64,000 bases of DNA, from positions 29,698,001-29,762,000 of the forward strand of contig NW_024704746.1 in NCBI RefSeq assembly GCF_018977255.1, in the 5' to 3' direction. The DNA is from Callorhinchus milii. Its lineage: Eukaryota. The notes below the pieces were generated by a model that saw nothing but the letters and a program-made list of their open reading frames with translations, was not told the DNA's origin and ran no database searches. This document shows positions 1-34,851 of the stretch, in pieces. A program made the position numbers and the translations under genes. Each line of letters opens with the position of its first letter. Position 1 is the first letter of the stretch.

Positions 1-2299
1 GAACATCCCAAGGTGCTGGACAGTCATCGATTTGGACCCGAGCAACAGTTGGGATCAGGAGGGGTAGAGGACAGGGAGGGTACGCACTGTCGAAGAGGAG
101 GTCTTGTTATTACAACCTCATTAGAGTCAACCAAAAATATCACAGGCATAACAGAACTGAAATCTTTGTTCAGATAAATGTACGAACCCAAAAATGCAGA
201 TTAAACCAATTAAATTCTGATTTCTGAAAGAAATTGGCAGCTACACATACTGTCAAGCTGTCCCTGCACATATAGAATATAAGAACACAGGAAAAACAGA
301 CCATCCAGCCCACTAAGCCTGTCCCACTAGTTAATTTGATTTTAATTGGTCTATATGCCCAGTTTGATGATGATATAGCGCTGTATCACGTCACTGAGAC
401 GTCTCAAAGCGCTTCACAGAAAATACAGTAAAATGACTGTGCGTTTTGTGGGTGAAACCCGGCAGCCAATTCCACACAGCAGTGTCCCACAAACAGTCGG
501 GGATTGAGTGACCAAATTATTATTAGCAGTAATATTTAAATTATTTCCAGCGATGATTGGCGGTCAACTTCACCAAATACAATATTCTGTGTCCCCGATA
601 ATTGCAACCACATCAGTATCTGTGTCTCAACAGAAGGATTCAGCAGATTAAACAACATACTGTTAAGGAGAGATATGCAGATTCTTCAAGAGATGACAAG
701 AGGCCAATGGCCAGAGCCAAACCTGCGTCACTTCAAGGAAATTGTGGACTCCAGGAATTACAGAGACAAGCTGCTGGCGATCAAGGATCTAACTTGAAAA
801 GCAGGAGAATTAGTCAGTTGTAAGCTAATTTTCCACAGAGGAAAAGCCTTCGAAAATTCATGTGGTGCAACTTGGTACTGAGAAACACAAATGAAGAGCA
901 CAGAAATGACCAACACTAAACCAGCAATTTAGTGAAAGATTATGCTGCATATGTCACTTATCAGTATTAATAATAATAGTAATAATAGTTGCATTTGATA
1001 GTGTTTGCACATGATGGGTATCCCAATGAATTATTATGTCAATGAAGCTCAAAAATATACTGTAAATATTTTCCGTAAATAGTTTGCAGGCGAATAAGTA
1101 CTGTACAAGCAGCAGCCACAGAACATGCATTCAATTACCACAAAAGCATGGCAGAAAGCATTTTTCAGAACAGACAATAATCAATGAAATCATCTGTTGA
1201 TGAGTAAACAGATTGATGGATTATCTTCATTATTAATTCAAGTCAGAGAGCATTTGCTAGACGGGGTATGATCTGCTTCATTAAACCAACAGCTTGCACC
1301 TGAGTTATGCAACAATGTCTAAATTTAGACAGGGAATTGAAACCTACTTGTTGATTTTTATATCAAATGCCTCATGCTCTAAACCTGAAAGTAATGACCT
1401 ATATTATGCAGTAGTTTATGACAAAGAAATCGTAAGAAAATTAATTCAGAAAATTAAAAAAAAATTCAGAAGAAATGGCGATTAAACTCTTGCAGAGGTT
1501 GTCCTTGGTGGACAGTTTGTTTCTTTAGTGAAGATTCATCCAAAGTTAATCATCTGTGAAGCTTCCTATGCTATGTTTGTATCAGCTATAACTTCATGTT
1601 TCTTGCTCAAACGGCAAGTAATCTGTTTCCTTGATGTACTGAATCACAATTTTTTTTTTATTGAGGTGTCAAGCAAACCACTTTTTTTTAAATTGTGCAA
1701 CATGCATTCCTTCTTGTGGGCTCACTTGCAGCTGATAAGTTTGTGAAAGTGTTACCAAATATAAAAACGTGAAGCAGTAATATCAAATATGGTTTATGCT
1801 GCAACCACTGAAGATTGAAATGAAACTTACAAAAATCCTCGCTAACAAAGAGCAATTTACAAAGAAAGTTAAATTTGGCTTATACCCATGATAACTATGA
1901 ACATTTTCAAACTAGAAATGATTTCCCCCCCACCGCACCCATGATCCCAAGCTAAAAAAAATTCACAAAATGCAAAGAAATATTTAGTTCAAATATCTAA
2001 TGTTTGTTTCCAGGAAGTCCCATCATTGTGCAGCAGAGATATCTGATATTCACTAATCTGCTGCCCTCGTGTGCAATTCTATAGAATTGCATGATCATCT
2101 TACAGCTTTTGCTGCCCACCTGCAAAAATATTACTGCACTCACACAAGTCAAAGCAAACTAATCACTTCAATCTAGCACAGTTACATTCGTATCATCTCC
2201 ACATATATTCCATTTGTCCAGCTATCTGGTGTGTTACATCGTCAGAGGCGCTGTCCTTCGGATGAAATGGGCGCTGTCTGTATCAGCCTCCACGGCTGC

Positions 2300-2985
2300 A
2301 CGCTCCACCACACTAAGCCAGTCAGGAACCTCGGTGTCTTGTTTGACCCTGAACTGTCCCTTCTCCCCCACATCCGCGCCATGACCGGCACTGCCTACCA
2401 CCACCTCCGCAACATTGCCAGACTCTGCCACTGCCTCACCCCTCAGGCTGCCCAAACCCTCACCCACGCATTCATCACATCAAGGCTTGATTATGGAAAT
2501 TCCCTCCCATCGGCCTTCCCAACTCTTCCCTTCGCGAGCTGCAGATCATCCAAAACTCTGCAGCTCGTGTACTCTCACGCACCAGGCTCCATGACCCCAT
2601 CACTCCCACCCTCGCCCGACTCCACTGGCTCCCCATACCCCAGAGGATCGAGTTCAAAATCCTTGTCCTCACTTTCAAGATTCAGCGGGCTCCGGCTGCT
2701 CCATGTCTCACGCCCGACCCGCCCTACCATCGGTGTCCGGGCTTTCAGCCTCTCTGCCCCCACACTCTGGAACTCCATCCCTTCGCCTCGCTTCCTCCCT
2801 CACCTCCCTCAAGGCCAATCTCAAGACCCTTCTTTTCAATCAAGCCTTCAGTCACCCTCCCACCACTCTGTCTTCCTTCACCCCTACCCCACACCCATGC
2901 TCGGGTCCTGATCCCTGACTGTCCAGTGCCTTGGGACGTTCTCCCGACGTGAAAGGCGCTCTATAAATTTAATTTTGTTGTTGTT
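2300..2985 (+). mobile_element. L2-clade LINE 3' fragment (frameshifted RT C-terminus)
   Basis: VRNLGVLFDPELS...HLRNIARL...HAFITSRLDYGNS; HWLP...RIEFKIL in another frame; tail ggcgctctataaat...(gtt)n. Confidence 0.9.
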
Positions 2986-2989
2986 TGTT

Positions 2990-3270
2990 ATTAAACCAAG
3001 GTCCCAGCTGCCTGATCTGGTGGACATTAAAGATCACATAGCACTATTCGAAAGAGAAGGGAGCTTCTCTTTACCGGAGTCCTGGCCAACAATTCTCTCA
3101 AATAATACTGGTCACTCACTTCATGGCTGTTTGTGGGACACTGCTGTGTGCAACTGGCTGATGGGTTTTGCCCACAAAATACAGTCAATCCACTTTACAG
3201 AATATCCAGTGACGCGCTTTGAGACGTCTCAATGAGGTGATAAGGTGCTGTATCAAGTGCAATTATTAAT
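2990..3270 (+). mobile_element. 5'-truncated DeuSINE abutting an L2 tail (representative of >20 SINE 3' fragments in the window)
   Basis: taaaccaaggtccc...gtttgtgggacactgctgtgtgcaactggctg. Similar fragments near 370, 9200, 11880, 14550, 18640, 27220, 33510, 37950, 43190, 44720, 46790, 49240, 49930, 59710, 60420. Confidence 0.8.
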
Positions 3271-5335
3271 ATCTGTACTACAATAATCAACTTTTTACAC
3301 AGTACAAACACAGCTACGTTACAGACATATTACATCAGCCACCTTCAATTGAGATTGGAAGCCAATAGACGGTGCACTTAGTGCTCGGATGTTCCAATTG
3401 CATGCAGACGGAAGGCAAGTTGGCTTTTCCGCTGCAGCCACATTGCCCAACCACCAATTATTCACCAACTCTGAGAGCAACATCAGGAATCATAGACCAT
3501 AGTGACATGTGGCCAGAGGCAGTATCTAGAATTAAGAGGTTGCAATATTTAAAAAGTCTACGTTAAATGCACAGAAAAAAATTGCATGGGGAAAATGTTC
3601 TGTAGTTGTGGGTTTGTAGAATAGATCCCACATTAAGTATCTGACACTGTGCCAGTTAACTCCTTCAACAAAATAACTGAACTGGGCTGGTTGACCTTTT
3701 CTGATTCCATGCCTCGCTCTCAAGTTAAATATGAATAATAATAATCCTTGCATTTGGTATAGTGCATTTCACAACAGGAGGATGCCACAATGCACTTCAC
3801 AGGATATTTTCCTCAGTGAAGCGACTGTGGGTTTTGTGCACATAGAAATATTTCAAAATAAGACTCCAAAAAGGCTTTATCCTAAAATATTCCACATAAA
3901 AGACTCACTGGCCTACCGTGGCTAACTATGGTTGGTATCAACTAGGTTCTATTTTGCAACAGTTATATTTAGTGAGGTGGGGAATCCTAAAGCCAGATGA
4001 TCCAAGGCAAATTTTCAAAACCCCTCTGCACTTAAGTAGATTCAGCGACACATTTCCCAGCCATTGGTCACCATTAATCCTGACCTGATGAACAGAGCAA
4101 TTTGTTATTGCTCCATGATAAGGAATCCTTCCAGTAGTTCTGCTTAATTATCTTGTCATTGGGACCACTGGACACCATAATGTTAACCAATATTTTACAT
4201 TGGTGACCCCCCCCACCCAAAAAAAAACGGGAAAGGTACAAATGGTAGATTTACCTTAAGATCTTTTAGGTCAAATATTTATTTGTTTAAAAAAATGAGG
4301 CTCTGTTTTACAAGTCTAAAGACACACACACACACTACGGCAGAGTCCTCCTCCAAATTTAAATACATCCCAAATGTGCTGCCTTTTTCGTATTTCCTCA
4401 CGGTGTGCTGTTCACTTTGTACGATGGGAGATTTCATCTGCAGAGTTTAATTTTGTGGCAAACATTGCCTAGAACCACATCTGACCTTTTGAAAACACAC
4501 AATGTGGAATCATGTTATTGAAGTAGGTTTTGGAAGCACTGAAGACAGATGCTGTATCCTAGGAGGGAAATGGCCACACTGCAACAAGTAATTGTATCCA
4601 AAGCACCTCCTTCTGGCAAAATAACAGCTGTGAAGTGGAAATCTATACCAGTACTCAAGCAGTACCATTCCATTTGCTTTGTGTACTATAATGTTGATAC
4701 TTCAGCCTGATGGACTTGTTAATCCTTTGGATGTAAAGAAGCTGTAGCGCTTTAACAGTTTTAAGGTAGTCATTCAATACTAATAGTATAGCCCAGTTAA
4801 GAAAGGATGTATTCTGTACAACTACTCAGCCCAAGACAACTTATCCTTCACCAAAATATTTTTCGGAAATTCTTTTCTGTTATGAGTTTGTTTTCAGATT
4901 GATCCGAGACACATCAACATTCATAATAAAGCTGAAAAAGGTACAGCAAGTAGTATTAGAAAATAAATAGGGTAAATAAAAGGGGAATTACATTGAGGAG
5001 GTATGTTATGTTCAAAGAATCCCATTACCTCTGAAGGAAAACAATAAATACATGCATTACCTTCGTTGAAATTCAATTGATTTTACAGGAATGTGAGGTG
5101 CACCATTTCAGGTCCCTTTTTCCCTCCTTTATCATTTTGGTGACATTGTTTGTTCTTCTCCATAATAGGGTTCTAGAGCAGCTCTGTTCATTTCAATAGA
5201 GCTTAGAATTGGCTTGAGAGACATCCAAAGCCACCCAACACAGGAAGCCCTTCACCAGATAATACAGTACACACTGTGTTTTTCCTGGATTTGTGCATCT
5301 CCATATCAGTTCCCAGGTCAGTCCTAAGTCTAATT

Positions 5336-5835
5336 TCCATGGTCACAGAACTACTCACTGTAAAATATGTACTAGGATTCCCGGCTGTTGACAGGAACAG
5401 GATATTTAGACTCACCTGCAATGTTACATGACACATTAAAAATTGGGCTAAATATAAATTTGGAGACGAAATCCATTGCACACTATTCCTAACAATCTAA
5501 GACAATATGCACCACTGTTACATTGTTTGACTCTGCTTTTATGATTTATTAAACTGTATATAATTATATGTATTCATATATGTATTTTTGCAATATTATA
5601 TTATATACCTCCTATAATATAGAATACATATGATTATATCAAGTTATAATATGAAAGGTATGATGTAAACAGTGTGGGACACTGCTGTGCGCAATTGGCT
5701 GCCGTGTTTCACCCATAAAATACAGTCAGTTCACTTGAGAGTATATTATGTGAAGCGCTTTGAAACGTGTCAACGATGTGATAAAGCACTATATCAAATG
5801 CAAGTATTATAATAGATCATTGATGTCAAATAATC
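5336..5835. repeat. Local duplication, copy 1
   Basis: ~500 bp direct repeat of 6151-6678, including the same SINE 3' fragment. Confidence 0.95.
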
Positions 5836-6150
5836 TACCATTGAAAGTAATATAATTCTCTGAGACTCACAATGTTCTTCCCTTGACATTGTAATTGACA
5901 CCATTAAAGCAGCCAAGGATGGAATTAAACCCAAAATAGAGGATGTCCATAAGCCTGGAATTCAATGAAATGTCAATAAGACATCGCCCATGCTCCCCAC
6001 CACACACGCACACGCGTTCATTAATTTATGCAGTATCCTAAAAGGGAGCTCCATTGGTTCCATTCCCTCCACTCTCACTTTGAATCCATAATCATGGCCA
6101 TTCATAGTTGAAAATCCCCAATTCAGTTACTGTTGGTAGAGCAGGTAACG

Positions 6151-6678
6151 TCCATGGTCACAGAGCTACTCACTATACAATGTGTACTAGGATTCCCGTC
6201 CTTTGACAGGAACAGGATATTTAGACTCACCTGCAATGTTACATGACACATTAAAAACTGGGCTAAATATAAATTTGGAGATGAAATCCACTGCACACTA
6301 TTCCTCACAATCTAAGACAATATGCACCACTGTTACATTGTTTGAATGCTGCTTTTATGATCTATTAAACTGTATATAATTATATGCATTCATATTATAG
6401 TAGATATGTAATAAGCACTATTATATTACATACCTCCTATAATATAGAATACATACGATTATATACAGTTATAATATAAAAGGTATGCATGTAAAGAATC
6501 CACGATTATTTGTGGGACACTGCTGTGCGCAATTGGCTGCCGCATTTCGCTCATAAAATACATAGTCAATTCACTTGACAGTATATTATGTGAAGCGCTT
6601 TGAGACGTGTCAATGATGTGATAATGCGCTATATCAAATGCAAGTATTATTATTATAGATCATTGATGTCAAATAATC
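6151..6678. repeat. Local duplication, copy 2
   Basis: Direct repeat of 5336-5835, offset 815 bp at the left end. Confidence 0.95.
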
Positions 6679-9600
6679 AGTCTTTTTCCCAATGGTTGGG
6701 AGAACTTTGTCAGGCTTCTGTTTGGGCAACTGTTGTAAATACAGTGGTTTAATGACATGCTAATATTTTAAAAGATGGAAGAAACAATCAAACATAATCA
6801 AATCTCAGTTCCAAATGATTAATCAAAGAATTGATTTATATAATCGTTACATTTCATAAAGCTGCTTTCATGTTGGCACTTCTCAAAGCGCTTCACAGGA
6901 TAGACTGCAAATTTGAGTGACTATTTTGAGGCAGATATCGAATAACATTAATACTAAAAACAATATTTAATAATGTGTCTTATCTGCAGGGGCTTCTTGG
7001 GATTAAACTATATTAATGGGAAAGGAAGAGAACAAATTTAAGAGTATTAATGTAAGCATTAATAATGCCAGATGGGCCTGATAACTAGATATGTTAATAA
7101 AGTAGATTTAGTAATAATAGAACGGAAAATCATTGAGCAAACTTACTTTCTCTCTCCTACCTTTGCTTTTGTAAACCTTGAGATTCCCCTCCCCCGAGAA
7201 AGAAAAAAATCATCCATTTAGATTTCCAATGGATATTTCATGACGTGAGAACAATTTATTAATCCACTAAAGAAACTGGTTTCTTATTTTCAATGCACCA
7301 GTACTACAGACAGAAATTATATAATTTCTAAATGAAATTACTTCTTCCTCATATTGTATTACCACCCACCTCAAAACACGGCAAGACATCTGGGTTACAA
7401 ACACTGGAACACATGGCATAATAAGAAAAGGATTCCTCCAAACACTGAAATGAGAACAAGACGTGTATTTATTTCATGCTTTAGTACAAAAGCCCGACAC
7501 TTGCTAAAACTGTTCTAACCTGCGATGAATGCAAGCTTCTGGGCTGTCATCCAAAACCATTTTCATCTAAATTGGCCACAGAACTGAAGTCTGTATTCTC
7601 CACCAACAAACAGAAGACCACCAAACTGGCTGCTGACATTCAAACACACATTTTAATTGGTTTAACTAGACATTGCTCATAAAATGGTCCAAGCTAAAAT
7701 TTGTTTAAACTGTGATCTTCTTTGTAAAACGTTCTACTTGTTTTAAACAATATTATTTTTAAAATATGGTTTTGTGTGATATTTTTGCAAGTTAACTTAA
7801 AATGTTAGAGAACTTGCAATTGGTGTGTGGATGCATTGTGTCTTCGAGTGTGGCAAATACTGGACACGTGCTCCCTTCGAAACCACCATGAATTATTGAT
7901 ACCTCTATATTATCATCAACATGCTTCATTAGGATAGGACAAATACTCCAGTGAAGTGCTGAATAGCTGCAAGTACGACATAACAGCAGATGCAAACGGA
8001 ATTTCTAAAAACAGTGAAAGGCCTGAGACAAAACCACATTGTGTATGGATCTAAACGCTCTGACTGGTACTGTGAAAAATGCTTCTGCAACCTATCGAGT
8101 CTCCCTGCCAAAGATTATAAGGAGTGGGCAGTACATCATTGTGGTAGAATACTATTAAGTTAGAATGCAAAGTAAACAGTGATTTTATCTGTGGAGGAAA
8201 GAAAATAAAAATGTTAAAAAAAACTTCTAAACATAGTGGTTGCGCACATGATTTAATCCATTGAAATTTCAGCCAGGAACGCATACAAAGTTTAGGTATT
8301 GTATATAATGTAGCATGGATTGCTGATATTTGACAATTCTGTCATTTTAGGCGTGACAGAATTGTACTACTATAATGTGAAAGAACTTTACAAAACTGAA
8401 ATTATCAAGAGGATGATGGTTATGTAATACAAATCTTCTTAACACAGAACATGTTTTCAGTTGCAAGATAAACAGAAAACAATGCCTTGATCTGTGAAAG
8501 AATTTCTAGTAAAATAGGTTGAAAAGGCTGAGAACTTTTATTTACCTTGCATTACACATACTTTTTCCATTCTGTCAGCAAACCACATACAGCTCCTTCT
8601 ACAGTTCATTTCCAAACTCTAAGCTTGACTTCAAAAATGACTTAAGACTGCTGGCAACAGCAGTCAGCAAGTCTGCAAATACACTGTGTGCATCTAGAGA
8701 CAAAGAGACTATTTGTTTCCATGCAGAAATGTAGTCCCAAAAACTATGATTCATCGATACACAACACATAAATACTCTATTCCTTAAGGGCTTTTACTTT
8801 ACAAAGGAAAGGTAAGGTTATTTGCAGTGTTCTATAATCAAACAATTAACAAAGAGCAGCGTATGTTACTTTCAAACCACTAAAAAAATCCCCCACAGGA
8901 CAATTGTCTATCCTCTGCCTCTACATATGTATTACATGCAAAATAAAATGTATACTTGGAAGTGATTAAAATGGATTACTTGATGGGTTGAGACAGCATT
9001 GTAAACTGGACTTTACAAATGTCACGTCATCCTCTGAGATTATTAAGTCATACCTTTAACTAATTCTTAAGGACTTTTAGAACGTATGCTGTAAATATAA
9101 CCTTAAGGTTAAAACCATTCAATTGTTGTAATTCTGCATTTGAGCGAGTTTTGATGAAATATCTCATGACAAGCAGCAATCAACATTCGCAAACATCCTT
9201 GCATTTGATATGTCGCCTTATCAAGTATTCGAGACGTCTCGAAGTGTTTCACAGAATATACTGCAAAGTGCAGTGACTGTATATTTTGTGGGCGAAATGC
9301 AGCAGCCAGTTGCGCAAAGCAGTGCCCCACAATCAAGGTAAGCGCCAAGCCCTGAATACGCGTGTGTATGTTCACAAATCTGGATTCTAGGCAATGCCTT
9401 CCAAGCCTCAGAGTTTCCTCATCAGCAATTTGACAGACCTGTGCTTTCACCACTTGTGATTGAGCTCTATATGTGCAGTGAAGTCTGGGTGTACCAAGCC
9501 AACTTTCCCGCAGCAAACTGCAAACAGGAGAGCTTGAAGATGCTGCTGTCACCATTCTTGCAGGAAGTACCAATGCTTATTATTTATTATTGTCATTGTA

Positions 9601-12600
9601 ATAATCTTTAACTGGTATAATTCGAAAGCAAATCTTTTTTGAGGAGTAAAATGAGACACCAAGCATGTCTCAAGACACGTTTAAGACCAGATGCAAAATA
9701 TTGGGAAAAAAATGAGGAATATAGTTAAGAATCCTTTCATTTAATATAGTACCTTATGACATTGTCACAATATCTCAAAATCATTTCACATGATTTACTA
9801 TTAAGTGTAGTTAACGTGCATTTGTAGGTGAATGTAGCAACTAAATTGCAAACTGCAATATCCCACAAACAGCCATGAACTGATTGACCAATTCTATCTG
9901 GGGGATTATTTGGCTGGACAATGCGAGAAACTGAGGGACAAGTGGAGGGAGGGGTTTGAATTTGAAATTTAACTTAAAATACTCTCCAAGTATTAACAAA
10001 ATTGACTGTTGCGTTAGCCTACAAATACAGTCACTAAATTTCAGTTTTTAAAAAAAATCCTGTGAAGCACTTTCAGATGACTCAACATGATAAGGTGGTA
10101 TATCAAATGCAAGTATTATCATAAATGAAATAAAATGAAGCACTATAATGTTACTGGGGATTGAGATGGAAGTGAGTAAGTATCATGTTTCAGTGCCTTG
10201 GAAATACGGCAAAGATACCAGCTTCAGTAGAGAGGACAAGAAGCATGCAATTAGCTACTGCACAAAACATATTTTAGAAATAATTATGGAAAAGGTCATC
10301 TAGGAACCATATCCCAGAATATTCTTTTGATTCTAAAAATGAGGAACCTAAATATTATATTTATTCTTCATTCTTCACTGGCCTATCACGGGTCATTGCT
10401 TATAATGATTGCGAATCATATGAAGTTGTCATTAGTTCTACCAAAGTGATTTATCCCCCAGTAGCTAACAACACTGTAGAATACAATCTGTTTGCCAATG
10501 AGCAATCCTTTGTTGACATATTTACTTTTGGTTCTGTGTACATAGTAACAGAGGTTTCTCTCTAAATCCAAATGATAGAGCTTGTGATAGATGCCAGTTT
10601 TACATTGAGGCGCAACTGCAGATGGCTTTTCAAGAAACATTTCTTCAGCGAGATGAAATTCGGAGCGTAGGAATTTTGTTTGAGATCTGAAAACTGCTTT
10701 GTCTGCATACAAAATGTGGACGAGAGAAATCAATGCCCAGGAAATGTAAGACGCTCAATAATATTAGAGCCGCTAGCTTTCTGGAATAATCCCATTATTA
10801 AGCGTTTTACTAGAGATTGAGACTTTTAAGTGTTTTAAGTCTATTCAATGTATATTATTTGTATAGCCAGTATCTTAACATACTAGTGAGTTTGGGAAGA
10901 GCATTATGTCCTTTGGGCAGAGTGCCCAATCCTTGGAAAGAGGACCATCATACCTCCTTGCTTCTTCGTACATTTCACCATTGTCATGGTGTCTACACAG
11001 CTGACAGATCAAAGATCTCATGTACAAAGGCCTAGAAAGTTAGACAGTCTTCTCTTAAAAATAGTCCACAGGACTCATTAAGACATTAGTCGTATGATTA
11101 ATGTAGTCAATTACCCATCAAAAACAATGCACGACTTTCCATTACCCTGAAGCTCGATATAAGTTCACCCCAATGTATTGATTCAGAACAGTCGGGAAAC
11201 CATTCCTTAATAAAGTTGTTCTGAAAAGTTTATCGTTTGTAAATACAAAAATGGCCGCTCCCATAGGTTCTATTCTATGAGGTAGTCTTTGGCTGCAATG
11301 CTGCGGCCTGGACTGACCTTAAAAATAACAGCTGTTTCTGTATGTCCAGGAAGTGTTCCTCTGGCAAGGATATTAGACCTGGGGCAATGTGGAACCTGGC
11401 TCACATAAAGATGTCCTGGGAGAGTTCCAGTTGGGATTTATCCAACTTCACTACAAGGCTTAGCTGAGCTGAGTGAAAACTGCTACTGACTGGAGGACAG
11501 CCTCTGAGTCCAGGCTCCTTCCTAGAAATGTGCTCTGAAAATAAGTTAGATAATAATCGTGATGGATCCTTGTTTGGCACAGAATGATTATTACCGGACA
11601 GAGACAGGCTGAAGGACAATGCGCAAAAATAGACGATAAACTGTGAACATTGGAAATTGGAAATAATACAAGGTTAATGTGAGACCTTTCATCAACGTCT
11701 AGCTTTCTCTTTCAGTTGCTGAGTAAACAGCTGTGGATTTCCAATATTTGTTTTTAATCATTAATGATGTTAGAGAAGTTGCCTTGGACCTCCTTCATCT
11801 ATTGAAACTGCTTGACAACAAAGTGTCCAACAATGACAGAGGTGTGTCTGTCTTGCACTGTGCTGATAATCTTTCCATTTGATGTAATGCCTTATCACAT
11901 CTTCGAGATGTCTTAAAGCGCTTCACAGAATACACTGCTAAGTGAATTGACTGTGTATATTGTGGGCCAAACGCGGCAACCGATTGCGCACAGCAGTGTC
12001 CCACAAACAGGCGAGGGTTGAGTGACCAAATGCCCTTGATTGCTAATGGTCATTATCGCAGAGCAGCAAATTAGACAGACTCCAATTTATTCAGTCCATA
12101 TTCACCAGTTTTCCCTACCTTGACACTTCCTAATCTATCGTATCATAAACAAGTATTAGAAATAAAATGACTCATGGACTGACAACATTGTTCTTGTGTT
12201 AGCAGAGAGGGCTATAGCAAAGAGATCATGGCTAAATTAATAATAGCTCGAGAACAGCAGCTATCTTTTCTTCTGCTTGAAACATTTATCAAATGCAAAA
12301 CTGGAGTTAATTCTTGTGGTTACAAGAGGATACATTCGATCAATTTGCAGTAGTCACGCCGAAATTATTTAATTCTTCACTGAGAAGACAACAATTGAAC
12401 ATCATGACCATAACACCTAATACCAACACAAATAAATGAAAGGGGGAACCCCGCCCCCAATTATACAATATTTTCTTTTAGTAAATATTAGATTGCTGGA
12501 CAGTGATTTCAAGTCAGGTATGCCATCTTGGGGCTCAGATAATGGTTGAACTTTGTTATGGTTTATGAGAATCCCTGGACAAGATAAATGTGCCGTGTGA

Positions 12601-14964
12601 TCACTCCAAGGTATCCAATATCTCTATAGGATATTTTGTTCCTTTCAAGTCTAATAGCATTTCTGTTAATAGACTGGAGTTACACACAGACACGCACCAG
12701 CAACCTGACATGAAACCCGATAGGCTCACTTATCACTGCCACATCTGTTATCCCAGCTGATCTGCCTGTACATAGGGTCAGCTGCATTAAGGGTGCACTA
12801 AATAATAAAAACTATTAAACACCATTTAAATATAGAAAAGGGCGACCCTTTAAACCGATAATTTAAATGTTAATATTTTCTATTTCTATTGAACGTTCAT
12901 TTTTACTTCTTTTTTCTGAAGACAATAAATCAATCATCTCAGTGTAGTTTCACAAGTGGCTTCAATTCTCCAGAAGTCTGTCTAATGACAACTGTTGTCT
13001 TAAACTTATGTTGCCCAATCTGAAGTTTGCTGACTACCTGACTGCAGTGTGGCACCATTGTTGAGCAAAAGTTTTGCTCACGCAATTGACTGCACACACG
13101 CACTTCAAAGAACTCTGGTCATCTTTTCCCCTCTTTAGTATGGGAGCTACAAAGAAAACTACTCTACTGACATCCTCATTCGAGTTGAGATCAGCTAACC
13201 ATTCAGTTAACCCTAAATCTTTCTAGGCTGTATAGGTCAGAGTCACTACCACATGCTGCATTATCCATTGTGGCATCAATCTCTACTTAAGTTCACTTCA
13301 AACAGTGTGTAGTATGTTATACACCACTAGGTTGGTTGCATATCTTATATAGGAATGTGTAATGCACTCTCTCAACCCAATAGGATAGAATTCTCAATAA
13401 TTTGACTGTAATTATAGACCAAAACAGAAAACGCTGGTTTCCACACTTAGGTTTGTAGACAAGACTAAACGAAGCGTTGTGCAAATTTGAAAGTTTCATA
13501 TTGGATGTGAAAAATTTTGTTTTAAAAATAATCGGGACAAAATTTCCCGGAACTTAGTTACATGAAATCAACATTATGGAATCAGATCCACATATCTTAA
13601 GCACAGTGCAACTTCTCACGTTTCTCACAATTCAATGTGGGCGGCAAATGGGCATTAGTCAATGGGTAAGGATGTCATTTTCCGTGATACAAGACTTCTG
13701 GTAAGCGTGGGAGTAATGGAGGGTAGGGGAGCAGCGTTATGAATTAGGAGGCGATTAATACAAGTTGTGTAAAGAAATCCAAGTGGTTTTGATAGGAAAC
13801 GGAATGGGACTCGGGTGAATCTACGACTTAACTGTTTATACGATTTATAAAGATAAAACTTTTACTGTATTTCAATTAAAAGTGAGGCTGGTCTTGTAAC
13901 CTTTCTAATATTAGAACAGTAAAGTGCAGATGATAACATTACACTTTGTGCACAACATCTGTGGTCTGAAAACTGATCACACACATGACAAAAAAAAAAG
14001 TTTGGTGAGCCTTTTTGAAGAGAGGTATTCTCTATCAGCCTTACATTTAGGCTCCTACAAATTAAGCCATATGCTCCAGCTCTACCCTCATTTGAGTGCT
14101 TTGGGCCACAGGAAACAAGATAAGATCTTTGGCATTAAGCAGACCAGTTGGCCCCATACAGGTAGAGCAACACTCTGGCTTTCTGATACTCTTCCTGCAT
14201 TTAACAGCTTACAATCCTTACAGTTCTATTTAGATCCTTAATATATATCAAAAAGTGAAGCAACTTTTTTTTATCATTTTACCTTATTTCACAGAAAAGA
14301 TTCAATAATTCCACTGCTTCCCGAAATATTGTTTAGGTCATGAACACCGCTCACCGTGCTTACACAGTACGAATAAAATCTTGGCAGCAATTAATTTTTT
14401 TAAAAACAGGCTGAATCCCCTCCATATTTTAGGATACTAATGAGGGTAGATGTCCCGTATATAAAGCATCCGTGATGCTCATTGTTGTTAATCAAAGAAA
14501 CAACTGTATTGCAAATATTTTCAAAGAAGCTAGAAAGAGAAAAATAATAAGAATTCTTGCATTTGATTATAGCGCCTCATAACGTCATTGAGATGTCTCA
14601 AAGCGCTTCACACGATATACTGTAAAGTGCATTTAGTGGGTAAACGTGGCAGCCATTGTCAGACCAGCATTTCCCTGGACCAATTCACAGTACTATATCA
14701 GAATAAGTACCATGTTCTTGAAAATTATTTTCAGGTGAAAAGTTTAAAGATATAGCAAATAGTCAATAAGGTGGTGGGTATCTTTTGAGCAAATATAGCA
14801 ATAACAATAAATATGCATATGGTAATTGATGCCAATGGTGTGACTTGTGACATTTTGCCGACAAAATATACAGTGAATTCCCTTTACAGTTTATTCTGTG
14901 AAGCGCCTTGAGATGTCTTGAAGTGGTGATAAGGCCTTATATTAAATGCAAGGATTATTATCAT

Positions 14965-15260
14965 TATCACCACCTTTGGCAGACTCCACTGGTTAGGTTT
15001 TGCAGCGCTGTGACTTCAAGCTCTTCACCCTTACCTACAAACCCCTTCATGTCATCACACCTCCCTACTACTATAATGTTCTCCAGCTTCAATCTTCTGC
15101 TTGTCCCATCCATACAGTAAATTTGCTGCAGCACAACCCCCACCTCCTCATTGGCAGTCAAGGCTTACAGCCACAATGCACCCATGCTCTGGGGAACTCC
15201 ATCCCTCAAGCCCTCTCTATCAGTCTTCAAATACCACCTTAAAAAAAACCTCATTGGCTG
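14965..15260 (+). mobile_element. Old L2 LINE fragment
   Basis: RLHWL..QRCDFKLFTLTYKPLH...GNSIPQAL remnants. Confidence 0.65.
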
Positions 15261-15966
15261 CGCCTATGGTCAAATTTTGCCCACATTCATCGCTTAAACA
15301 TTTCAGCAGGTCATTCACAAAATACACAAGGCTAGGTCCAGAATAAATAATATCCATCATCCTAATTCATTCAATATTAGAAAAGATTAGAATATAGAAG
15401 TGCAGCAGAGAATAAATTGGGGCTTTTAAAAAATAAATTGAAACTTGATATTGGCAAAACGGCAGGTTACAGTATCAATAGTGTCAAACGTTTGTCCTTT
15501 CATCCTCTTGCATACAGGACCTCTGTGGCATGTCGCACGCAAGATCACATTTTCATTTCTAGCATCCTGCTTTGTATCCTGCTCATTTTAATGGGAAATA
15601 CAAGCTCCTTACTTTCAAGACATCTGCTTCAGCTATCACTAATTTTGCTTGAGCCTCGTTTACACGACAACTATAAATTTCTATTTGCGCCAAATGAACA
15701 GCTGTTCTAAATTAAATACACTATCAAGCCACTGACATCAGATGATAACTGAGCTGTGGATCTCTTGAGAAATACTTTGCTTCTGCAGCTGGTACACCAA
15801 CTATACATTTCATTCCTACTTCTGCATCAGCCCAGAAAATGGCCCAAAAAAGAACATCCCAGCACCATTGAACTCGAAAGCTTAAAAGGGAAACAAATGG
15901 CAAGATTTCATGCTCAATTAGTGATGAAACTTTTTAAAACGATATAGCGATAAGAACTAAATGCAA

Positions 15967-16490
15967 AGAGCCCGGCTCAATTGATACCACTCTTGCCTCG
16001 GAGGGAGAAGGTTGTGGGTTCAAGCCCATGTCAGGACTTAGAATCACATAGTCTAAGCTGACGCACAATTGCTGTGCTGGTGGGGGGGGGTGGGGTTATA
16101 TTGTCGGAAGTGCTGTCCTTCGGATGAGACATTAAACCAAGGTCTCGTCTGCCCGTTCAGGTGGATGTTAACTATTCAAAAAGGGCAGGGCTATGGGGTG
16201 AGAGTGGGGGAGTCAGCTGATAGCTCTTTCAGAGAGCCAGCGCAGGCATGATGGGCCGAATGGCCTGCCCCCTTCAGTGCTTTAAGATTCTATGAATCTA
16301 TTCTGGCCAGCAATCCCCCAAATAAAATTGGTCACTACATTGCTGTTTGAGGGACACTGCTGTGCATAAATGAATACTGCATTTCACCCACAAAATATAG
16401 AGTCAATCCACTTTACAGTGTATCTTGTGAAGCAATTTGAGACGTCTCAACGACATGATCAGACTATGTTAAATGCATGATTATTATTAC
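15967..16490 (+). mobile_element. DeuSINE (SacSINE1-like) with a nested CR1-type 3' tail at ~16180-16305
   Basis: ggttgtgggttcaagccc head; Deu domain tgtcggaagtgctgtccttcggatgagacattaaaccaaggtctcgtctgcc; insert ends gatgggccgaatggcct...gattctatgaatctattct. Confidence 0.8.
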
Positions 16491-17957
16491 AAAATACTCA
16501 TACAAAACTATGTATCTGAACCAGCTGAAGGAAAAACAGACTCCTCAAGTTTCAAATGTTAATTAATTTATTGATTATCACACCTAAGAAAGCTTGCTTT
16601 AGCTCCCACATTCGTATATTCAAAAAAAAGTCAAACTAGATTGTAAAGCATTGGCTCCAGCAGCAATACCAAGTATTGTAAAGCCAAACTTCTGCCTAAC
16701 TCCACCAAGGGACCACAATTTAAAAATCTAATCACTTCTGTGTAAATATGTCTTTGTGGAATGTTTTGTTTTATTTGAATTGCTGAATGATTGATCAAAC
16801 AGGCGATGGTACAAAGATTTGCCAATTAGCTATTTTTATCTGCAGTTTAAATAGAGTTCCTGACCCGAGAATAATCCCGAATCCAAGAGCATTTCTCTCT
16901 TGGCAACTTATTTATGTATTTATCAAGATTAAACTGTGTTGTGAAAAATTCTGTGACTTCCTGCTGCCTGTTTAAAATCAGTAACAAAGAGGTTAAAATA
17001 TAGAGGCACGTTTGATCAATATACTCTCGTCATGTGCAGCATTTTTTTTTCCTCCCAATAATAACAGCACAAAATAATTTAAGCTGACATCCATCAAACT
17101 GATTTGAATTAGGCTGATGTAAACGTTTGGTTCTAGTTATTCAAGAGTAAACCAGCTGAGGTTCAAAAGTCATTCAGTGCAAGTGAAACCGGATTCAATC
17201 CAATCAAACACTTGTAACTAGGAACACATGTGGACAGGAATCGGATTTTTTGGCCTGCCAAACAGGTTCCAGCAATTATGTCTATGGAAGCTTTCGTTAA
17301 TACTCAATCTGTCTCCTCATAATTTGTTGGGAACACAACCCCTTCATATAGTAACCCACGCTTTGTTCTCCAAGTTGGAGCGATGAAATAGATTTGATAA
17401 AAGAACGCACCATCAGATGAAATGCAACCACGTTTCTGTGAAATAGCTAAAAAAAAGTGTGATGAATCATCAAATGCACACACGTGGCTTTATTGTCCAT
17501 TGTGATCTAAAGGCACACCTAAACAAAAAGGATTTTACATTAATAAGTGTACAATTGTTATGCGATAAAATTTATTTTACATTAACTGCAGTTACCCCGA
17601 TTCAAACTTCAGCTGGTGTTCGTTATGCAATGCAGCAGATTGGGACACGCGTTGAGTGTTGCTCCATGACTTGAGACACAACTATTGCCATGCCCTCAAG
17701 AGATATATGTCTCAATATCTCCCCGAGCAATATTGGGACATCAATTGAGACATCTGTTGGAAATGGATTCGCCGGTGTACCAAATCACTTAGTATTGTAT
17801 ATTTTTGGACATAGAATCACAGCTCACTTATTCCTTTCCACAATTAATTACCCAAAGCTTCCAGTTTAGGAACAGGAACTAGCAGTTTTATGGGCTTATT
17901 AATTTCCTGACTAGAGTTTGTTCATTTAGTGTTTTGCTCAGACAACTATGTTTCTAC

Positions 17958-18062
17958 TCGAGTTCTGACAAAACTTCATCGACCTGAAACGTTAACTTAC
18001 TTTCCTCTCTCCATAGATGTTGTCTGACTTGCTGAGTGTTTCCAGCGACTTTGGTTTTTACG
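17958..18062 (+). mobile_element. Single arm of the same Penelope-like repeat
   Basis: gacctgaaacgttaacttactttcctctctccatagatgttgtctgacttgctg matches 22420-22497. Confidence 0.7.
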
Positions 18063-21000
18063 TTATGTTTCCACTGAGCTTTGAAAAGGACTGATAACCA
18101 TTGAAATATAACAGTACCACTACTCCACCCTCCACACACCTATATTGATCACACAGTGTCCTCAAGAAAGCTCTGCGTCCTCCACAGGTCTGCAGAGGAG
18201 GTTCTGTTTTCCTGGAAGATGCCATTACAAGGGAAAAACTATTTCCTGTACCTCCAGTTGTGCGGCACAGTCTAACTGTTGTTTGACTGACTCAGTGCTT
18301 GACCCAATTCTACCTCTTGGTCTTATTTAACCTTTTTTGAGCTGGTACTTGCATCGACCAATGCAATAGATGCTAGTGTTTTTTATTTGGGACATATTCT
18401 GTATTTATTTTAGCGATAACTGCCAGTGTTGTACTTGGCACATTTATTTACTGGCAGTGCTGCTTTTGTAAAATATATTGACCAAGTTAAAAAGTGAATG
18501 AGGCAATTAACTGTTTTCATCAACAAAAACAGAGATTAACATTTATTTTATTCAACACCACAGCAATTTATTCTCCAAACCTAAAACCCAAATAAGGTAC
18601 AATTAAATAAATTATATAAATACATACAAATAATATTTTGGTCACTCAATCCACGACATGACTGTTTGTGAAACACTGCTGTGCGCAATTGGCTGCCGCA
18701 TTTCAACTACAAAATATAGTCAATTCACTTTACAGTATATTCTGCGAAGTGCTTTGAAACGTCTTGAAGATGTGATAAGGCACTATATCAAATGCAAGGA
18801 TTATTATGATTATTATTACAATGTTTTACTGTAATATTTCCTTTAAGTGTGTATTCTCCCTGCAGCAGTTCTCAGTATTTAGAGGAGGTGTCTTTATTGA
18901 AAGAATACTGAACTAGAGAGATAAGGGAATAGAGATAACTGCTGCATGCCTCCTTCCTATCAAGCTATAATTGAGAAAGCATTTCTAATAAAAGACCCCA
19001 GCAACAATCACACTATATTATTTAAACAAATAAGAATTTAATGGTAAGTATCTCGAGAGAGAGAGAGAGAGAGAGAGAGAGCTGTTGAAATGTAAACAAT
19101 AATCAGAGGAAAATGCAGCTCTATTTCCCGTATACCTGAACTAAATAATGCATTGCCCTTTTGAGATTAGGTTCAGTTACAGGGAGAACATTTATACATT
19201 GTCTCCCTCTTCTGACCATCTGTGGGATTTAGTCCCGTCACTGAAATGTGACTTTGCACTCATTGTAATTTCATTGCAGCTATTTTTTAAACTTAAAAGT
19301 ATTGAGTTTGAAAACTCCACTGCATTAGCCTTCAGGTTTTTAATATTCATGTTCTACAGGATTCCAGGTGATGCTCTAAATTAATTTGCCACTGAATTAA
19401 GCAAAAGAGTGATGGTGAAAGCCATATAACCAGTCTATCCACTTATATCACTTTATTACTGATATCATGACAAACTGAAGCCTGTAATTCTGAAATTAAT
19501 GGGTTATTTTCTATATCCCACTGTTCCCAAATCAGTTGTTACATATGGCAGTGAGCCTTGGGACAATAAAAATGCACACTGCATTACCACGAGCACAAAA
19601 CACTAAATAGAATTTTGTCCATCGTTTTAAAAAAGAACACGGACTGAATTAAAAAAGGTAAGTAATGAAACATGCCTTGTAAAAAGAATACATTTCCAGG
19701 GTCAACACAGAAAAATATTCTGGCATTTCTCTTATCTTTTCTCCGACTTTACCCCTTTCCAGCATTTGTACTACCCTGGCAGGGTCATGATTTAAAGTAA
19801 GGCTTGTAAGGCAGTCTATAACTTGCAGGTTCTCAATCACCTTCTTGCCTCCCAAACACAGAGATAACAACTGTGAAAATAGTTAACAGTACTGCCCTAT
19901 ACTGGCAATAAAAAGTCCTGTTGGTGCACATGTCCGAGGTTGCCCACAAGGTGGCTAGAATTGGATGTCTGACACGTGCTAAAACCATGCTTAAGAATAT
20001 CCAACTCAGACACAGTTCCACATGTGCATGCCCCCTACATATGGAAATGTTCCCGTGGAGGTACCCTTCTTACCTGATTCCCAAGAATATCAGGCACACA
20101 TTAGCAAGAGCCAAGGCTTGGGGACCTCAGATTATTCATCTGTGCCACATCTGTGGCAACACTAAGTAAACTGGTCCCTTTAACACGTATTCAAAATCTT
20201 CCCGTCAAAACTTCATATCTAGAATCAGAAATGGTTTCAGAAAAAAAGAGTAGAAATAAAAATGCCATAGAAACACAGTGTTTAGTCCACTTTACATTTG
20301 TACCAGTCTTATTCTGAGATACATGTTAAAATCTAGTTTAAAACAGTTTTAATAATAATACTTGTATTTGATATAGCAGCTCATCACTTCGTTGAGACAT
20401 GTCAAAGTGCTGCACAGAAGATATTGTTTATTGTAAACAATAAATCAACACTATTTTTTTCAAATGGCACTTTTCTTAAATTATATAACATTTCTAATTT
20501 GACAGCACTTTTAAATAAAATGTCCATTTTGAGCTTCCATTATGCTAACAACAGGATTCGTATTATAGCTCGTGATCAGCACTCGGAACAGTGACTGGTT
20601 TTCATTAAACTGAGGAAGAAATGTTGAAATGTCTGATTATTATTAGCAATTTAGGGTGATTCATTGCAGATGGTTGTTTAAGTTGTATTCATATTTAAAA
20701 GTAATGGGGATGTACATATTTTAAGGCAAAGGTCTGAATATCTTGACTTTGTGCTTGAAACATCTGCTGTGGACCATGTGGAATTAAGAGTCAGCATATA
20801 ACAAATGACTGGTTCATTGTCAAACTCCTTTCAGCAACAAAGTTTGAAAAGATATTTAGAAACAGGCGGTAACAATCTTCACTGTACAACATTTGTGAAA
20901 GCTCAAGTTCTTCTTGATGTTGGAAATGATAATACGGATTTAGAAATCAGTTTCTTTAAGCTTCTATTCAAGATGTCCCAAATCTATGATTCTGTTGTCT

Positions 21001-22324: not shown

Positions 22325-22536
22325 AACACAGAAGTCGCCGGCAACACGCAACAGGTCAGGCAGCATCCATGGAGAGAGGAAAATGAGTTAACGTTTCAGG
22401 TCAATGACCTTTCTTTACAGACCTGAAACGTTAGCTAATTTTCCTCTCTCTATGGATGCTGCCTGACCTGCTGCCTGTTCCCAGCGACTTCTGTGTTTAT
22501 ACCAAGATTTCCAGCACCTGCAGTACTTTGCCGTTT
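22325..22536. mobile_element. Palindromic Penelope-like element remnant (~78-bp imperfect arms, 17-nt loop)
   Basis: 22325-22402 is the near reverse complement of 22420-22497 (seen directly); the Penelope assignment is from recall. Confidence 0.7.
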
Positions 22537-26494: not shown

Positions 26495-26880
26495 GAATGT
26501 TTATAGCACAGTTGGAGGCCATTCAGCCTTTCATCTCTGTGCTGGTGTTTGTTCTCTCCCTCCCTCCCCCCACAGCTATCCACCAAACTGATTCATTTCC
26601 CAATATTGCTCTTGAAGTACTTATCCAATTTCCTCTTAAATGCTGTTCGTGGACTCAGCTTCAACGGCCACACTCTTAATATCTTTCTGTGTTTAAAAAA
26701 TTCTAATCTCTCTTTTTTCTGCTAAGAGTACCCTCTTGTCACTGATCCATCGCTAATTGGAAATGCATCCACTGCACCAAAATCTTTCAGAATTTTGATA
26801 ACTTTTATTAGATATACTCCCACTTCCTCTGTTTCAGCAAATAATCTCAGCTTTTCAAGACTCTCCACATACCTGTCTCC
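26495..26880 (-). mobile_element. Decayed CR1-like LINE 3' fragment
   Basis: tatagcacagttggaggccattcagcc...ttatccaatttcctcttaaa pattern of CR1-type tails. Confidence 0.55.
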
Positions 26881-27587
26881 TTGAATTTTATGATCTTTTT
26901 GTTCATCTCTCTCCTGTTCATCAGCTACTACATTATCCTTTTTAAAGTTCTGGTGAAGAGGCAGCTTTTTGCAATGTTAACCTATTTTAAGAGCTCAGAA
27001 ACCCGCTTGTCTTCTTTCTATTTCAAAAAGAAGGAAACATTAAACGGAAAAGGCGAGTTCCAACCGAATGGAATTTATATTTCCGGGAGACACAAAAGTG
27101 TGAGTAAGAAAAATACTGTTGCTGTCATATTAAGGGTGAAGAAGCAGCAGTTTTACTTACATTGTATAGTTCCCTTCAGAAAAAAACATCATGTATTTTC
27201 TAAACATTAGGACCATAAGAAATAATAATCATTGCATTCGATATAACGCTTTATCACGTCTTCGAGATGTCTCAAAGCGCTTCACAGAATATACCGTAAA
27301 GCGAATTGACTGTATATTTCGTGGGCCGAACAATGTATTTTGAGTATCGACTAACTGCCAGAAATCACATCAAACTGAAGATCTGTATTCCAACTCGTTT
27401 TCATTTCTGGTTACGAATGATTAAATGCGTTTTTTTCAAAAAAAAATCACTCGCTCATTCATTCGTTTGTATCACGTTCAAACATGACAATGTTAAGCGC
27501 TCCGAGACACTGCCCTACATGAAGCGCACCGCATAAAAATAATAATAATCCTCGCATTTGATATAGCGCTTTTCACGTTGGGAGGAC

Positions 27588-29139: not shown

Positions 29140-29400
29140 TCAGGTTCAAGTCACAACAAAGTAAATGGTTTCATTTTCGTTTGGGGGATAAGAGAGAGAG
29201 AGAGAGAGAGGGGGTGAGTCCCGGCGATGCGATGCAGTGCGATCCACTCACCTGTTTCTGGTCACTTTGGTCGCAACAACGTCTCTTCTCTGTGCATTTG
29301 TTTCACCTCCAACAGCTTCACCTCCAACAGCTTCACCTCCAACAGCTGAGCGCACGCCCTGCGCCACGAAAACACCAACTGCACGCAGGCGCACACACAC
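29140..29400. promoter_or_regulatory. Candidate (bidirectional) promoter / first-exon region of PARP11
   Basis: Local CpG enrichment; ISRE-like GGTTTCATTTTC at 29167; NRF1-like CGCAGGCGCA near 29384; GTGAGT donors on both strands (+ 29214, - 29251); ~3 kb upstream of the first coding exon. Confidence 0.55.
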
Positions 29401-30593
29401 ACACATACACACACACCCCCCAAACCCCCATCACCACCATCACCCCCAACCCCCCCCCAACCCCCCATCACCATCAACCCCCAACCCCCCCCATCATAAC
29501 CCCCCACCCCCCCCACCATCACCCCCAACCCCCCCACCATCATAACCCCCAACCCCCCCCCATCACCCCAACCCCCCCCATCACCATCACCCCCCAACCC
29601 CCCCCATCACCCCCCAACCCCCCACCATCATAACCCCCAACCCCCCCCCACCATCACCCCCCAACCCCCCCCCATCACCCCCAAACCCCCCATCACCACC
29701 ATCACCCCCCAACCCCCCAACCCCCCCACCATCACCCCAACCCCCCCACACCATCACCCCCAACCCCCCACACACATCACACCCCCACACCCCTCCCCAC
29801 ACAACCACACCCCCACCCCCCCATCACCACACCACCCCCCCCACACACCACACCCCACCACCCTCCCCACACATCATAACCCCCAACCCCCCCCACCATC
29901 ACCCCCAACCCCCCACCATCACCCCCAACCCCCCACCATCACCCCCCAACCCCCCCCACCACCCCCCAACCCCCATCACCATCACACCCAACCCCCACCA
30001 TCATAACCCCCCACCCCCCCCCATCACCCCCAACCCCCCCCACCATCACCCCCCAACCCCCCCACACCCCCCAACCCCCCCCACCATCACCCCCAACCCC
30101 CCACACCATCACCCCCCAACCCCCCCCACCATCACCCCCAACCCCCCCACCATCACCCCCCAACCCCCCCACCATCACCCCCCAACCCCCCACCATCACC
30201 CCCCAACCCCCCACCATCACCCCAACCCCCCACACCATCACCCCAACCCCCCCATCACCCCCAACTCCTCCCACCATCACCCCCAACCCCCCACCATCAC
30301 CCCACAACTCCTCCCACCATCACCCCCAACCCCCCCACCATCACCCCCAACCCCCCCATCACCATCACCCCCCAACCCCCCATCACCATCATAACCCCCA
30401 CCATCACCATCACCCCCAACCCCCCCACCATCACCCCCCAACCCCCCCCCACCATCACCACCCATCACCATCACCCCCCAACCCCCCCACCATCACCCCC
30501 CACCATCACCCCCACCATCACACCCCACCATCACCCCAACACCCCCCACCATCACCCCCCAACACCCCCACAACCCCCACCATCACCACCCCC
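29395..30593. repeat. C-rich minisatellite (~CCCCCAACCCCCCACCATCA)n
   Basis: Directly visible, ~1.2 kb. Confidence 0.95.
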
Positions 30594-33931: not shown

Positions 33932-34052
33932 AAAGATTCAAATATTCCTTGTTCTGCAAGTAGTGAAGACATTGAAAGAAGTTTCAGCATGAATCCACAT
34001 GGCAAAATTTCATTTTCTACCTCAAAATTCAACTATGTATTAGATTTTAGAG
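33932..34052 (+). CDS. PARP11: PARP11 coding exon 2 (KDSNIPCSASSEDIERSFSMNPHGKISFSTSKFNYVLDFR)
   Basis: Polypyrimidine tract + tttcag acceptor, donor g|gtaata, 121 nt phase 0->1; similar to human CSVSSEDIEKSFKTNPCGSISFTTSKFSYKIDF. Confidence 0.93.
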
Positions 34053-34512: not shown

Positions 34513-34851
34513 ACTGTAACAAACAATCTCTGAGTATGCTTTCAACCAACACCCTCCTACCCTCCTCCTTGCCTCCCCAATCATTGATCCACATCAACTC
34601 TGTGAAGCTCTTTAAGACATTATTGTACATGAGCGGTGATATGTAAGTACAACTTGCTTGCAATTCAACCTGCTTGTCCCCGTTTCCAGAGTTCAATATA
34701 GGTGATTCTCCCTTATTGTCCTAATTCCTAATCTAAATCAAAAGTTTTCAAGGGAATGTTCCATCATACAGCAGTGAAACATTGATGTGGTTATCGTGTT
34801 CTAACCAACAGATTGGAAACGGCAAAAATGGAAAATTGTTTTCTGTTCTAG

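What the first reader, a model, noticed from the sequence alone, without database searches (positions are those of the whole stretch)
5416..6311. Duplicated 81-nt minus-strand exon-like unit with only synonymous differences
Inside the local duplication, 5416-5496 and 6231-6311 each read on the - strand as tcttag|ATT...CAG|gtgagt, a phase 0-0 unit with a perfect donor. Both encode the same 27 aa (IVRNSVQWISSPNLYLAQFLMCHVTLQ). All 4 differences are synonymous third positions (GTT/GTG, CAA/CAG, TCG/TCA, CAA/CAG). The adjacent 80 nt past the donor has 7 differences, mostly amino-acid-changing in the same frame. This is what tandem (possibly mutually exclusive) coding exons of an unannotated gene or micropeptide would look like. 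I do not recognise the peptide, the acceptor pyrimidine tract is modest, and four sites is a small sample.
Basis: partly seen in the sequence, partly recalled or inferred. Interest (0 to 1): 0.7.

Follow-up and report, generated by a model that had tools for sequence, protein, structure and literature searches.

The report
Duplicated pseudo-exon in chimaera gene desert
Two old copies of a 500-base stretch between the CCND2 and PARP11 genes of the elephant shark carry an exon-like piece that differs only by silent changes, but no protein, gene family or normal codon make-up backs it, so it is likely non-coding DNA with a lucky pattern (about a 1-in-5 chance of a real hidden gene).

Summary
5416-5496 and 6231-6311 read AG|81 nt|GTGAGT on the minus strand, encode the same 27 residues and differ at 4 synonymous third positions. 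They lie in a real local duplication (5336-5835 / 6151-6678, 88%) in the CCND2-PARP11 gene desert of Callorhinchus milii. The pattern is locally unusual: P about 0.005 in this frame, and 1-6 in 10,000 neutrally simulated duplicates. The coding reading has no outside support, however. No protein was found, though a matched control retrieved this species' PARP11. There is no paralogue, Pfam or PDB match. Codon make-up scores below all 33 real coding blocks nearby. The acceptor is weak, and a better one shared by both copies gives an exon with stops in every frame. The unit is not less diverged than the rest of the duplicate (4/81 vs 28/419). The same four changes are also silent in a plus-strand frame. 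A 55-kb base skew and a promoter-side donor at 29252 hint at a minus-strand transcript, but a replication origin fits too. Expression could not be tested. Verdict: likely a non-coding duplicate; coding exon pair about 20%.

The parts
5336..5835 (.). Copy 1 of the local duplication
   Evidence: blastn 87.9% to 6151-6678; 32 substitutions and 12 indel events over 500 nt; the 5331-5540 part has only these two places in the genome
6151..6678 (.). Copy 2 of the local duplication
5836..6150 (.). Single-copy spacer between the copies
   Evidence: 1 match in the genome; no significant likeness to either flank (26 and 20 of 300 shuffles reach the score)
5416..5496 (-). Exon-like unit 1 (81 nt, phase 0-0, strong donor, weak acceptor)
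   Evidence: donor score 12.9, acceptor 3.1
6231..6311 (-). Exon-like unit 2, 4 synonymous differences from unit 1
5388..5530 (.). Slow-diverging block (4 substitutions, no indels in 143 nt; partner 6203-6345)
   Evidence: Fisher p 0.04 post hoc, scan p 0.34 on substitutions alone and 0.03 with indels
5416..5611 (-). Alternative unit from a better acceptor shared by both copies (partner 6231-6436); stops in all three frames
   Evidence: acceptor score 5.5 vs 3.1; 4-8 stops per frame
5547..5651 (.). AT-rich palindrome, copy 1 (more decayed)
   Evidence: fold z -3.3; arm alignment
6363..6476 (.). AT-rich palindrome, copy 2 (long hairpin)
   Evidence: fold z -7.0, 0 of 200 shuffles as stable; no Rfam family near its gathering score
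5673..5813 (+). Dispersed repeat fragment (SINE or LINE-tail type; label inferred, not from a library), duplicated with the unit (partner about 6497-6656)
   Evidence: many copies at about 75-85% in the window; 10 substitutions in 141 nt between the two local copies
29252..29358 (-). Possible first exon of a minus-strand transcript on the far side of the PARP11 promoter region (context; link to the unit not shown)
   Evidence: the only other CAGGTGAGT in 264 kb; its exon part is single-copy; minus-strand-type skew to its left

Best explanation
This is a real, old local duplication of likely non-coding DNA in the CCND2-PARP11 gene desert, in which a strong 5' splice-site motif and a weak AG happen to frame 81 bases, and the all-silent pattern of its four differences is probably luck. 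Shown: the duplication carried along a dispersed repeat and an AT-rich palindrome, both of which have since decayed in each copy, and the copies are about 6-7% diverged. Inferred: the palindrome, a cruciform-prone sequence, may have helped trigger the duplication (general knowledge, untested). The 143-nt block around the unit diverged more slowly, by chance or partial gene conversion, leaving only four changes, three of them transitions, which fell in one codon-position class. The unit would then be a pseudo-exon, at most recognised occasionally if the region is transcribed from the PARP11 promoter side.
For: No protein of 22-2000 aa shares three 5-mers with the peptide, whereas a matched 40-aa control retrieved this species' annotated PARP11. 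HMMER finds 0 among 1.84 billion representatives; there is no Pfam or PDB match and no paralogue below E 6. Codon score is -8.6/-7.7: below 33 of 33 real coding blocks of the region and below 94-97% of stop-free non-coding windows, likelihood ratio 0.12-0.15. The acceptor scores 3.1, which 17% of 1,726 random AGs reach; 6 of 7 PARP11 acceptors score >=6.1. A better shared acceptor gives stops in all frames. Divergence of the unit (4/81) does not differ from the rest (28/419; p 0.80), and 4 synonymous changes exceed the 1.4 expected. The changes are also silent on the plus strand. Exon-like units are no denser on this strand here (4.0 per 10 kb) than in the desert (4.6). With an estimated 100-20,000 local duplicates genome-wide, up to a few chance cases are expected in a whole-genome scan.
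Against: 0 amino-acid changes where 4.0 were expected (P 0.019), and 4 of 4 silent (P 0.005). Neutral simulations gave such a unit in only 10 of 80,504 and 42 of 72,305 duplicates, and never with donor >=12. Likelihood ratio for coding is 28-63 before codon make-up. The donor is perfect and kept in both copies, with 62 identical flanking bases in the assembly. The region has a minus-strand-type skew (-0.086 vs -0.011, p 3e-5) as large as in the cyclin gene. Neighbouring candidate units 9439-9517, 7370-7444 and 4486-4558 can be chained in frame with it. The protein control found only the same-species protein, so the search was blind to shark orthologues. The codon model comes from 911 codons of mostly soluble proteins and may penalise a hydrophobic peptide.
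Confidence: 0.6

Rival explanations
1. The two units are real tandem coding exons of an unannotated, lineage-restricted (perhaps germline-expressed) minus-strand gene starting near 29.4 kb. Purifying selection kept the 27 residues after duplication, and the exons are used alternatively or one after the other.
For: 4 of 4 silent changes, phase 0-0, perfect donor and invariant near flanks. Rare under neutral simulation. Minus-strand-type skew over about 55 kb and a candidate first exon. In-frame neighbours at 7370-7444 and 4486-4558.
Against: No annotated or homologous protein (control). Codon score below all 33 real blocks. Weak acceptor. No excess of exon-like units. Neighbours have no Pfam match; 7370-7444 has no paralogue. 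The candidate at 26873-26949 lies in an ORF with 1,838 look-alikes, i.e. a repeat.
Confidence: 0.2
2. The donors are used, but in a spliced non-coding RNA transcribed away from the PARP11 promoter (working like human PARP11-AS1). Splice signals are mildly constrained, the exon may run from the 5611/6436 acceptor, and the silent pattern is incidental.
For: All 3 CAGGTGAGT sites in 264 kb lie on the minus strand between 5.4 and 29.3 kb (two of them are the duplicate pair). Skew. A shared better acceptor with stops in all frames. A human PARP11-AS1 ncRNA exists (10.64898/2026.08.09.743753, passages; its divergent orientation is recalled).
Against: Skew changes sign near 32 kb, as at a replication origin (PMC3320577, passages). 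PARP11 itself shows no transcription skew (-0.01). No clear strand bias of U1 or polyA motifs (12 vs 8 and 27 vs 32).
Confidence: 0.17
3. The constrained thing is something else in the duplicate: the AT-rich hairpin as a small-RNA precursor, or a plus-strand frame from the ATG at 5339/6154 read through its TGA.
For: Hairpin z -7.0. The duplication begins 3 nt before an ATG whose frame also keeps the four changes silent.
Against: The two hairpins broke pairs at different places with no compensation seen. No Rfam microRNA near its gathering score and no SECIS family among the 7 matches at E<=5. The plus frame has 5 amino-acid changes in its first 17 codons and a TGA at codon 31.
Confidence: 0.03

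Closest known systems
Pseudo-exons (AG...GT units with good splice motifs that are normally not spliced in)
   Same: Strong donor, marginal acceptor, exon-like length, found in non-coding DNA at about 4-5 candidates per 10 kb per strand in this desert.
   Different: Here it is duplicated and its four differences are all silent, which is uncommon. The general notion is recalled; PMC8819188 was seen only as a listing and start of abstract.
Mutually exclusive homologous exons from tandem exon duplication (PMC5740500, passages read)
   Same: Two neighbouring units of equal length, same phase, homologous, without stops.
   Different: No host gene is known. The two peptides are identical, so alternation would change nothing in a protein. 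There is no frameshift or short-intron mechanism (734-nt intron, lengths divisible by 3), and the junction-read criteria could not be tested.
Human PARP11-AS1 non-coding RNA
   Same: Same gene neighbourhood; here a candidate minus-strand start lies beside the PARP11 promoter region.
   Different: No sequence homology was tested and no transcript is shown here. The paper seen (10.64898/2026.08.09.743753, 3 passages) gives only expression associations.

Membership tests
Mutually exclusive exons (criteria of PMC5740500) | Neighbouring exons of similar length and sequence, same reading frame, no in-frame stop | tested here: met
   81 nt each, 95% identical, phase 0-0
Mutually exclusive exons (criteria of PMC5740500) | Internal exons of a protein-coding gene | tested here: inconclusive
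   No host protein found; a frame-compatible chain of candidates exists, but candidates are at background density
Mutually exclusive exons (criteria of PMC5740500) | Junction reads from each exon bridging the other, none joining the two | not testable with these tools
   No run on record as RNA was offered as a holder
Mutually exclusive exons (criteria of PMC5740500) | A mechanism: frameshift/NMD, branch point close to the donor, or U2/U12 incompatibility | tested here: not met
   Both lengths divisible by 3; intron 5497-6230 is 734 nt; both donors are GT U2-type. RNA-structure or factor-based exclusion was not tested.
Protein-coding exon | Deficit of amino-acid changes | tested here: met
   0 observed vs 4.0 expected, P 0.019, on four sites only
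Protein-coding exon | Codon and amino-acid make-up like coding DNA of this genome | tested here: not met
   Below 33 of 33 local coding blocks (small training set of 911 codons)
Protein-coding exon | Conserved frame and splice sites in related species | not testable with these tools
   No relatives' genomes are held; the protein search control did not reach shark orthologues
Known structured RNA (Rfam) | Match at the gathering score | tested here: not met
   7 matches at E<=5 in 4000-8000, all far below their gathering scores

The most novel reading that the evidence does not exclude
A hidden, chimaera-restricted protein-coding gene occupies about 55 kb of the CCND2-PARP11 gene desert, head to head with PARP11. 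It has a tandem pair of 27-codon exons whose protein sequence has been held identical since an old duplication, and it has no relative in any protein collection searched.
Probability: 0.2. Interest if true: 0.55.

Novelty: new member of a known kind. Interest (0 to 1): 0.22.

Why it matters
If non-coding, it is an ordinary local duplicate and a useful warning: four silent changes beside a perfect donor can be produced by a genome-wide hunt, and they read as silent on both strands. If coding, it would be an orphan gene missed by annotation in a conserved vertebrate gene desert, with an exon duplication caught before the peptides diverged. That would be worth a short follow-up in chimaera RNA data but is not a new kind of system.

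Tried and rejected
Expression: no RNA holder listed (12 runs listed, 6 hold the stretch, none on record as RNA; my 3.6-kb query was long enough to hide a run holding only an 81-nt exon). I laid 6 of the 12 runs. X1 and X2 (RNA only by guess) give evenly spread, unspliced contigs like DNA, with no joint and no loose end at 5416 or 5496. X7 and X8 laid nothing. None of this is evidence for or against expression; one search's joint and loose-end tables were swamped by repeats. One X1 contig over 5391-5569 without branches could suggest identical copies in that animal, but its depth fits a collapsed bubble, so I drew nothing from it. An exact 30-nt scan of metagenome contigs gave 0. An older third paralogue at 1831-1911 (81 nt, a 9-base match in register) was rejected: 27 of 81 identical, acceptor -3.0, no BLASTP alignment. 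The ORF 10419-10754 as a terminal exon: single copy, no Pfam, PDB best E 0.2, codon score -6.3. The ORF 26725-26976 is a repeat fragment. Folding the 143-nt block gave z -0.8 to -1.8, no clear structure. The spacer is not a diverged third part of the duplicate. Literature: 'parp11 + elephant shark + synteny' gave 0 papers; searches listed nothing on this locus in cartilaginous fish (listings only). Subscription journals and genome-browser annotations (for example lncRNA models) were not searchable, and no supplements were read.

Full report
Observation. The two 81-nt units are exactly as described: AG before, GTGAGT after, the same 27 residues, and four synonymous third-position differences at window 5443, 5467, 5476 and 5491. 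They lie in a local duplication, 5336-5835 and 6151-6678, 87.9% identical, separated by a single-copy 315-nt spacer. The non-repeat part has only these two places in the genome. Contigs of other runs carry both left flanks and the spacer, so the duplication is real.

Place. The window holds PARP11 at about 32.5-38.8 kb (Pfam PARP; named by the database) and an EF-hand gene from about 53.7 kb (CRACR2A by recall). A cyclin gene lies about 146 kb to the left on the minus strand. Translations further left read as TIGAR, FGF23 and FGF6 (names recalled). This is the vertebrate CCND2-PARP11 gene desert (synteny recalled) in Callorhinchus milii (label). The finding is about 150 kb upstream of the cyclin gene and 26 kb upstream of PARP11's first coding exon.

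Anatomy of the duplicate. Substitutions by segment: 7 of 52 (5336-5387), 0 of 28 (donor flank), 4 of 81 (unit), 0 of 34 (acceptor flank), 11 of 142 with 9 indel events (AT-rich palindrome), 10 of 141 with 3 indel events (dispersed repeat), and 0 of 22 (tail). The palindrome folds strongly (z -7.0 in copy 2, -3.3 in copy 1). The copies broke different pairs without compensation, which reads as neutral decay. Position 6205, 26 nt past the copy-2 donor, shows another base in 3 of the 4 runs laid, so that flank is not invariant among animals.

Is it more than chance? Locally yes. A random substitution here is silent with probability 0.27, so 4 of 4 is 0.005 in this frame and 0.023 in any of six; 4.0 amino-acid changes were expected and none seen (P 0.019). 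I simulated neutral duplicates from desert sequence and asked for any AG...GT unit with at least 4 differences, all silent. This gave 10 of 80,504 (with indels) and 42 of 72,305 (without) at donor >=6, 0 and 6 at donor >=10, and none at >=12 (splice matrices are recalled approximations). Genome-wide it is borderline. One other low-copy local duplicate was found in 264 kb, which extrapolates to about 3,800 (95% range 100-21,000), so up to a few weak-donor chance cases, and well under one strong-donor case, are expected. The likelihood ratio for coding against a mix of even and slow-block neutral models is 28-63.

Evidence against coding. (a) No protein of 71-2000 aa or 22-70 aa shares three 5-mers with the peptide. 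A control of the same size retrieved this species' PARP11, but no shark orthologue. So the peptide is not in the annotated proteins of this species held there, while distant relatives could be missed. HMMER over 1.84 billion representatives gave 0; Pfam, PDB and the own genome gave nothing beyond the two copies. (b) A codon model from 911 local codons scores the units below all 33 held-out coding blocks and below 94-97% of 5,000 stop-free non-coding windows (ratio 0.12-0.15). (c) The acceptor scores 3.1, which 17% of random AGs reach; 6 of 7 PARP11 acceptors score 6.1 or more. The best acceptor within 250 nt is at 5611/6436, shared by both copies, and gives stops in all frames. (d) The unit's divergence equals that of the rest (p 0.80), and its silent changes are nearly three times the neutral expectation. 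That is what well-placed neutral changes look like, though a coding exon can do it too (P 0.06). (e) The four changes are equally silent in the plus-strand frame sharing third positions. With priors of 0.5-5% for an unannotated coding exon (my estimate), the posterior spans 3-42% when codon make-up is counted and 19-71% when it is not; I settle on about 20%.

Is the region transcribed on the minus strand? From about -28 kb to +32 kb the plus strand has a steady deficit of T and G (-0.086 over 26 blocks against -0.011 over 39 mid-desert blocks, p 3e-5, boundaries chosen after looking). It is as large as in the two minus-strand genes to the left. The only other CAGGTGAGT in 264 kb closes a candidate first exon at 29252. 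But the skew changes sign near 32 kb, as at replication origins (PMC3320577, passages), and PARP11 itself shows no skew. Exon-like units are no denser on this strand than in the desert. A divergent non-coding transcript is plausible, not shown. A human PARP11-AS1 exists (passages).

How it most likely works. Shown: an old local duplication that copied a repeat fragment, a palindrome and a strong donor motif. Inferred: most of it decays neutrally, the 143-nt block diverged slowly by chance or conversion, and the unit is a pseudo-exon (0.60). Rivals: tandem coding exons of an orphan gene (0.20), a used exon of a divergent lncRNA (0.17), and a hairpin RNA or plus-strand frame (0.03).

Comparison with known systems. 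It has the layout of mutually exclusive homologous exons (equal length, phase and homology; PMC5740500, passages). It cannot be filed as such: there is no host gene, no frameshift, short-intron or U12 mechanism, the peptides are identical, and the junction criteria could not be tested. Earlier notes of this scan describe similar orphan or lucky all-silent cases in this genome (unchecked AI notes, used only as a sign that such patterns recur). No note overlaps this place, and no paper on this locus in cartilaginous fish was listed.

Verdict. Observation confirmed; interpretation unproven and less likely than not; interest 0.22.

Noticed in passing
window 29252-29420, minus strand: Candidate first exon with a perfect donor and a short upstream ORF, facing away from PARP11, between N stretches and a low-complexity tract. 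Either a divergent transcript or PARP11's own 5' exon in a locally inverted piece of assembly.
   Followed up: partly
window about -28000 (G000:C5:29,670,000) to +32000: Steady T<A and G<C skew on the plus strand over about 55-60 kb, changing sign near 32 kb: minus-strand germline transcription or a replication origin near PARP11.
   Followed up: partly
window 6363-6476 and 5547-5651: Long AT-rich palindrome (hairpin z -7.0) found only in these two copies in the genome search.
   Followed up: partly
window 33932-34052 and about 34809-34852: The stored PARP11 isoform X2 (P0002) skips the 121-nt exon of the WWE region and includes 13 residues that read through from upstream of the acceptor at 34852; it looks like an odd isoform or annotation artefact.
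   Followed up: no
window 22325-22497: A second long palindrome (85%, 176 nt) formed by two inverted repeat fragments.
   Followed up: no
window 10284-10754: Overlapping ORFs of 93 aa (+) and 112 aa (-) in single-copy DNA; the minus one has a fair acceptor near 10705 but no family match and a low codon score.
   Followed up: partly
window 26725-26976, minus strand: Decayed fragment of a very common repeat (1,838 candidates; CR1/LINE-like by recall) that contains a good-looking AG...GT unit at 26873-26949.
   Followed up: partly
L022-L023 (about 133 kb left of the window): A 1.4-kb low-complexity tract giving a 479-aa Pro/Cys/Ala-rich open frame, 11 kb upstream of the cyclin gene.
   Followed up: no
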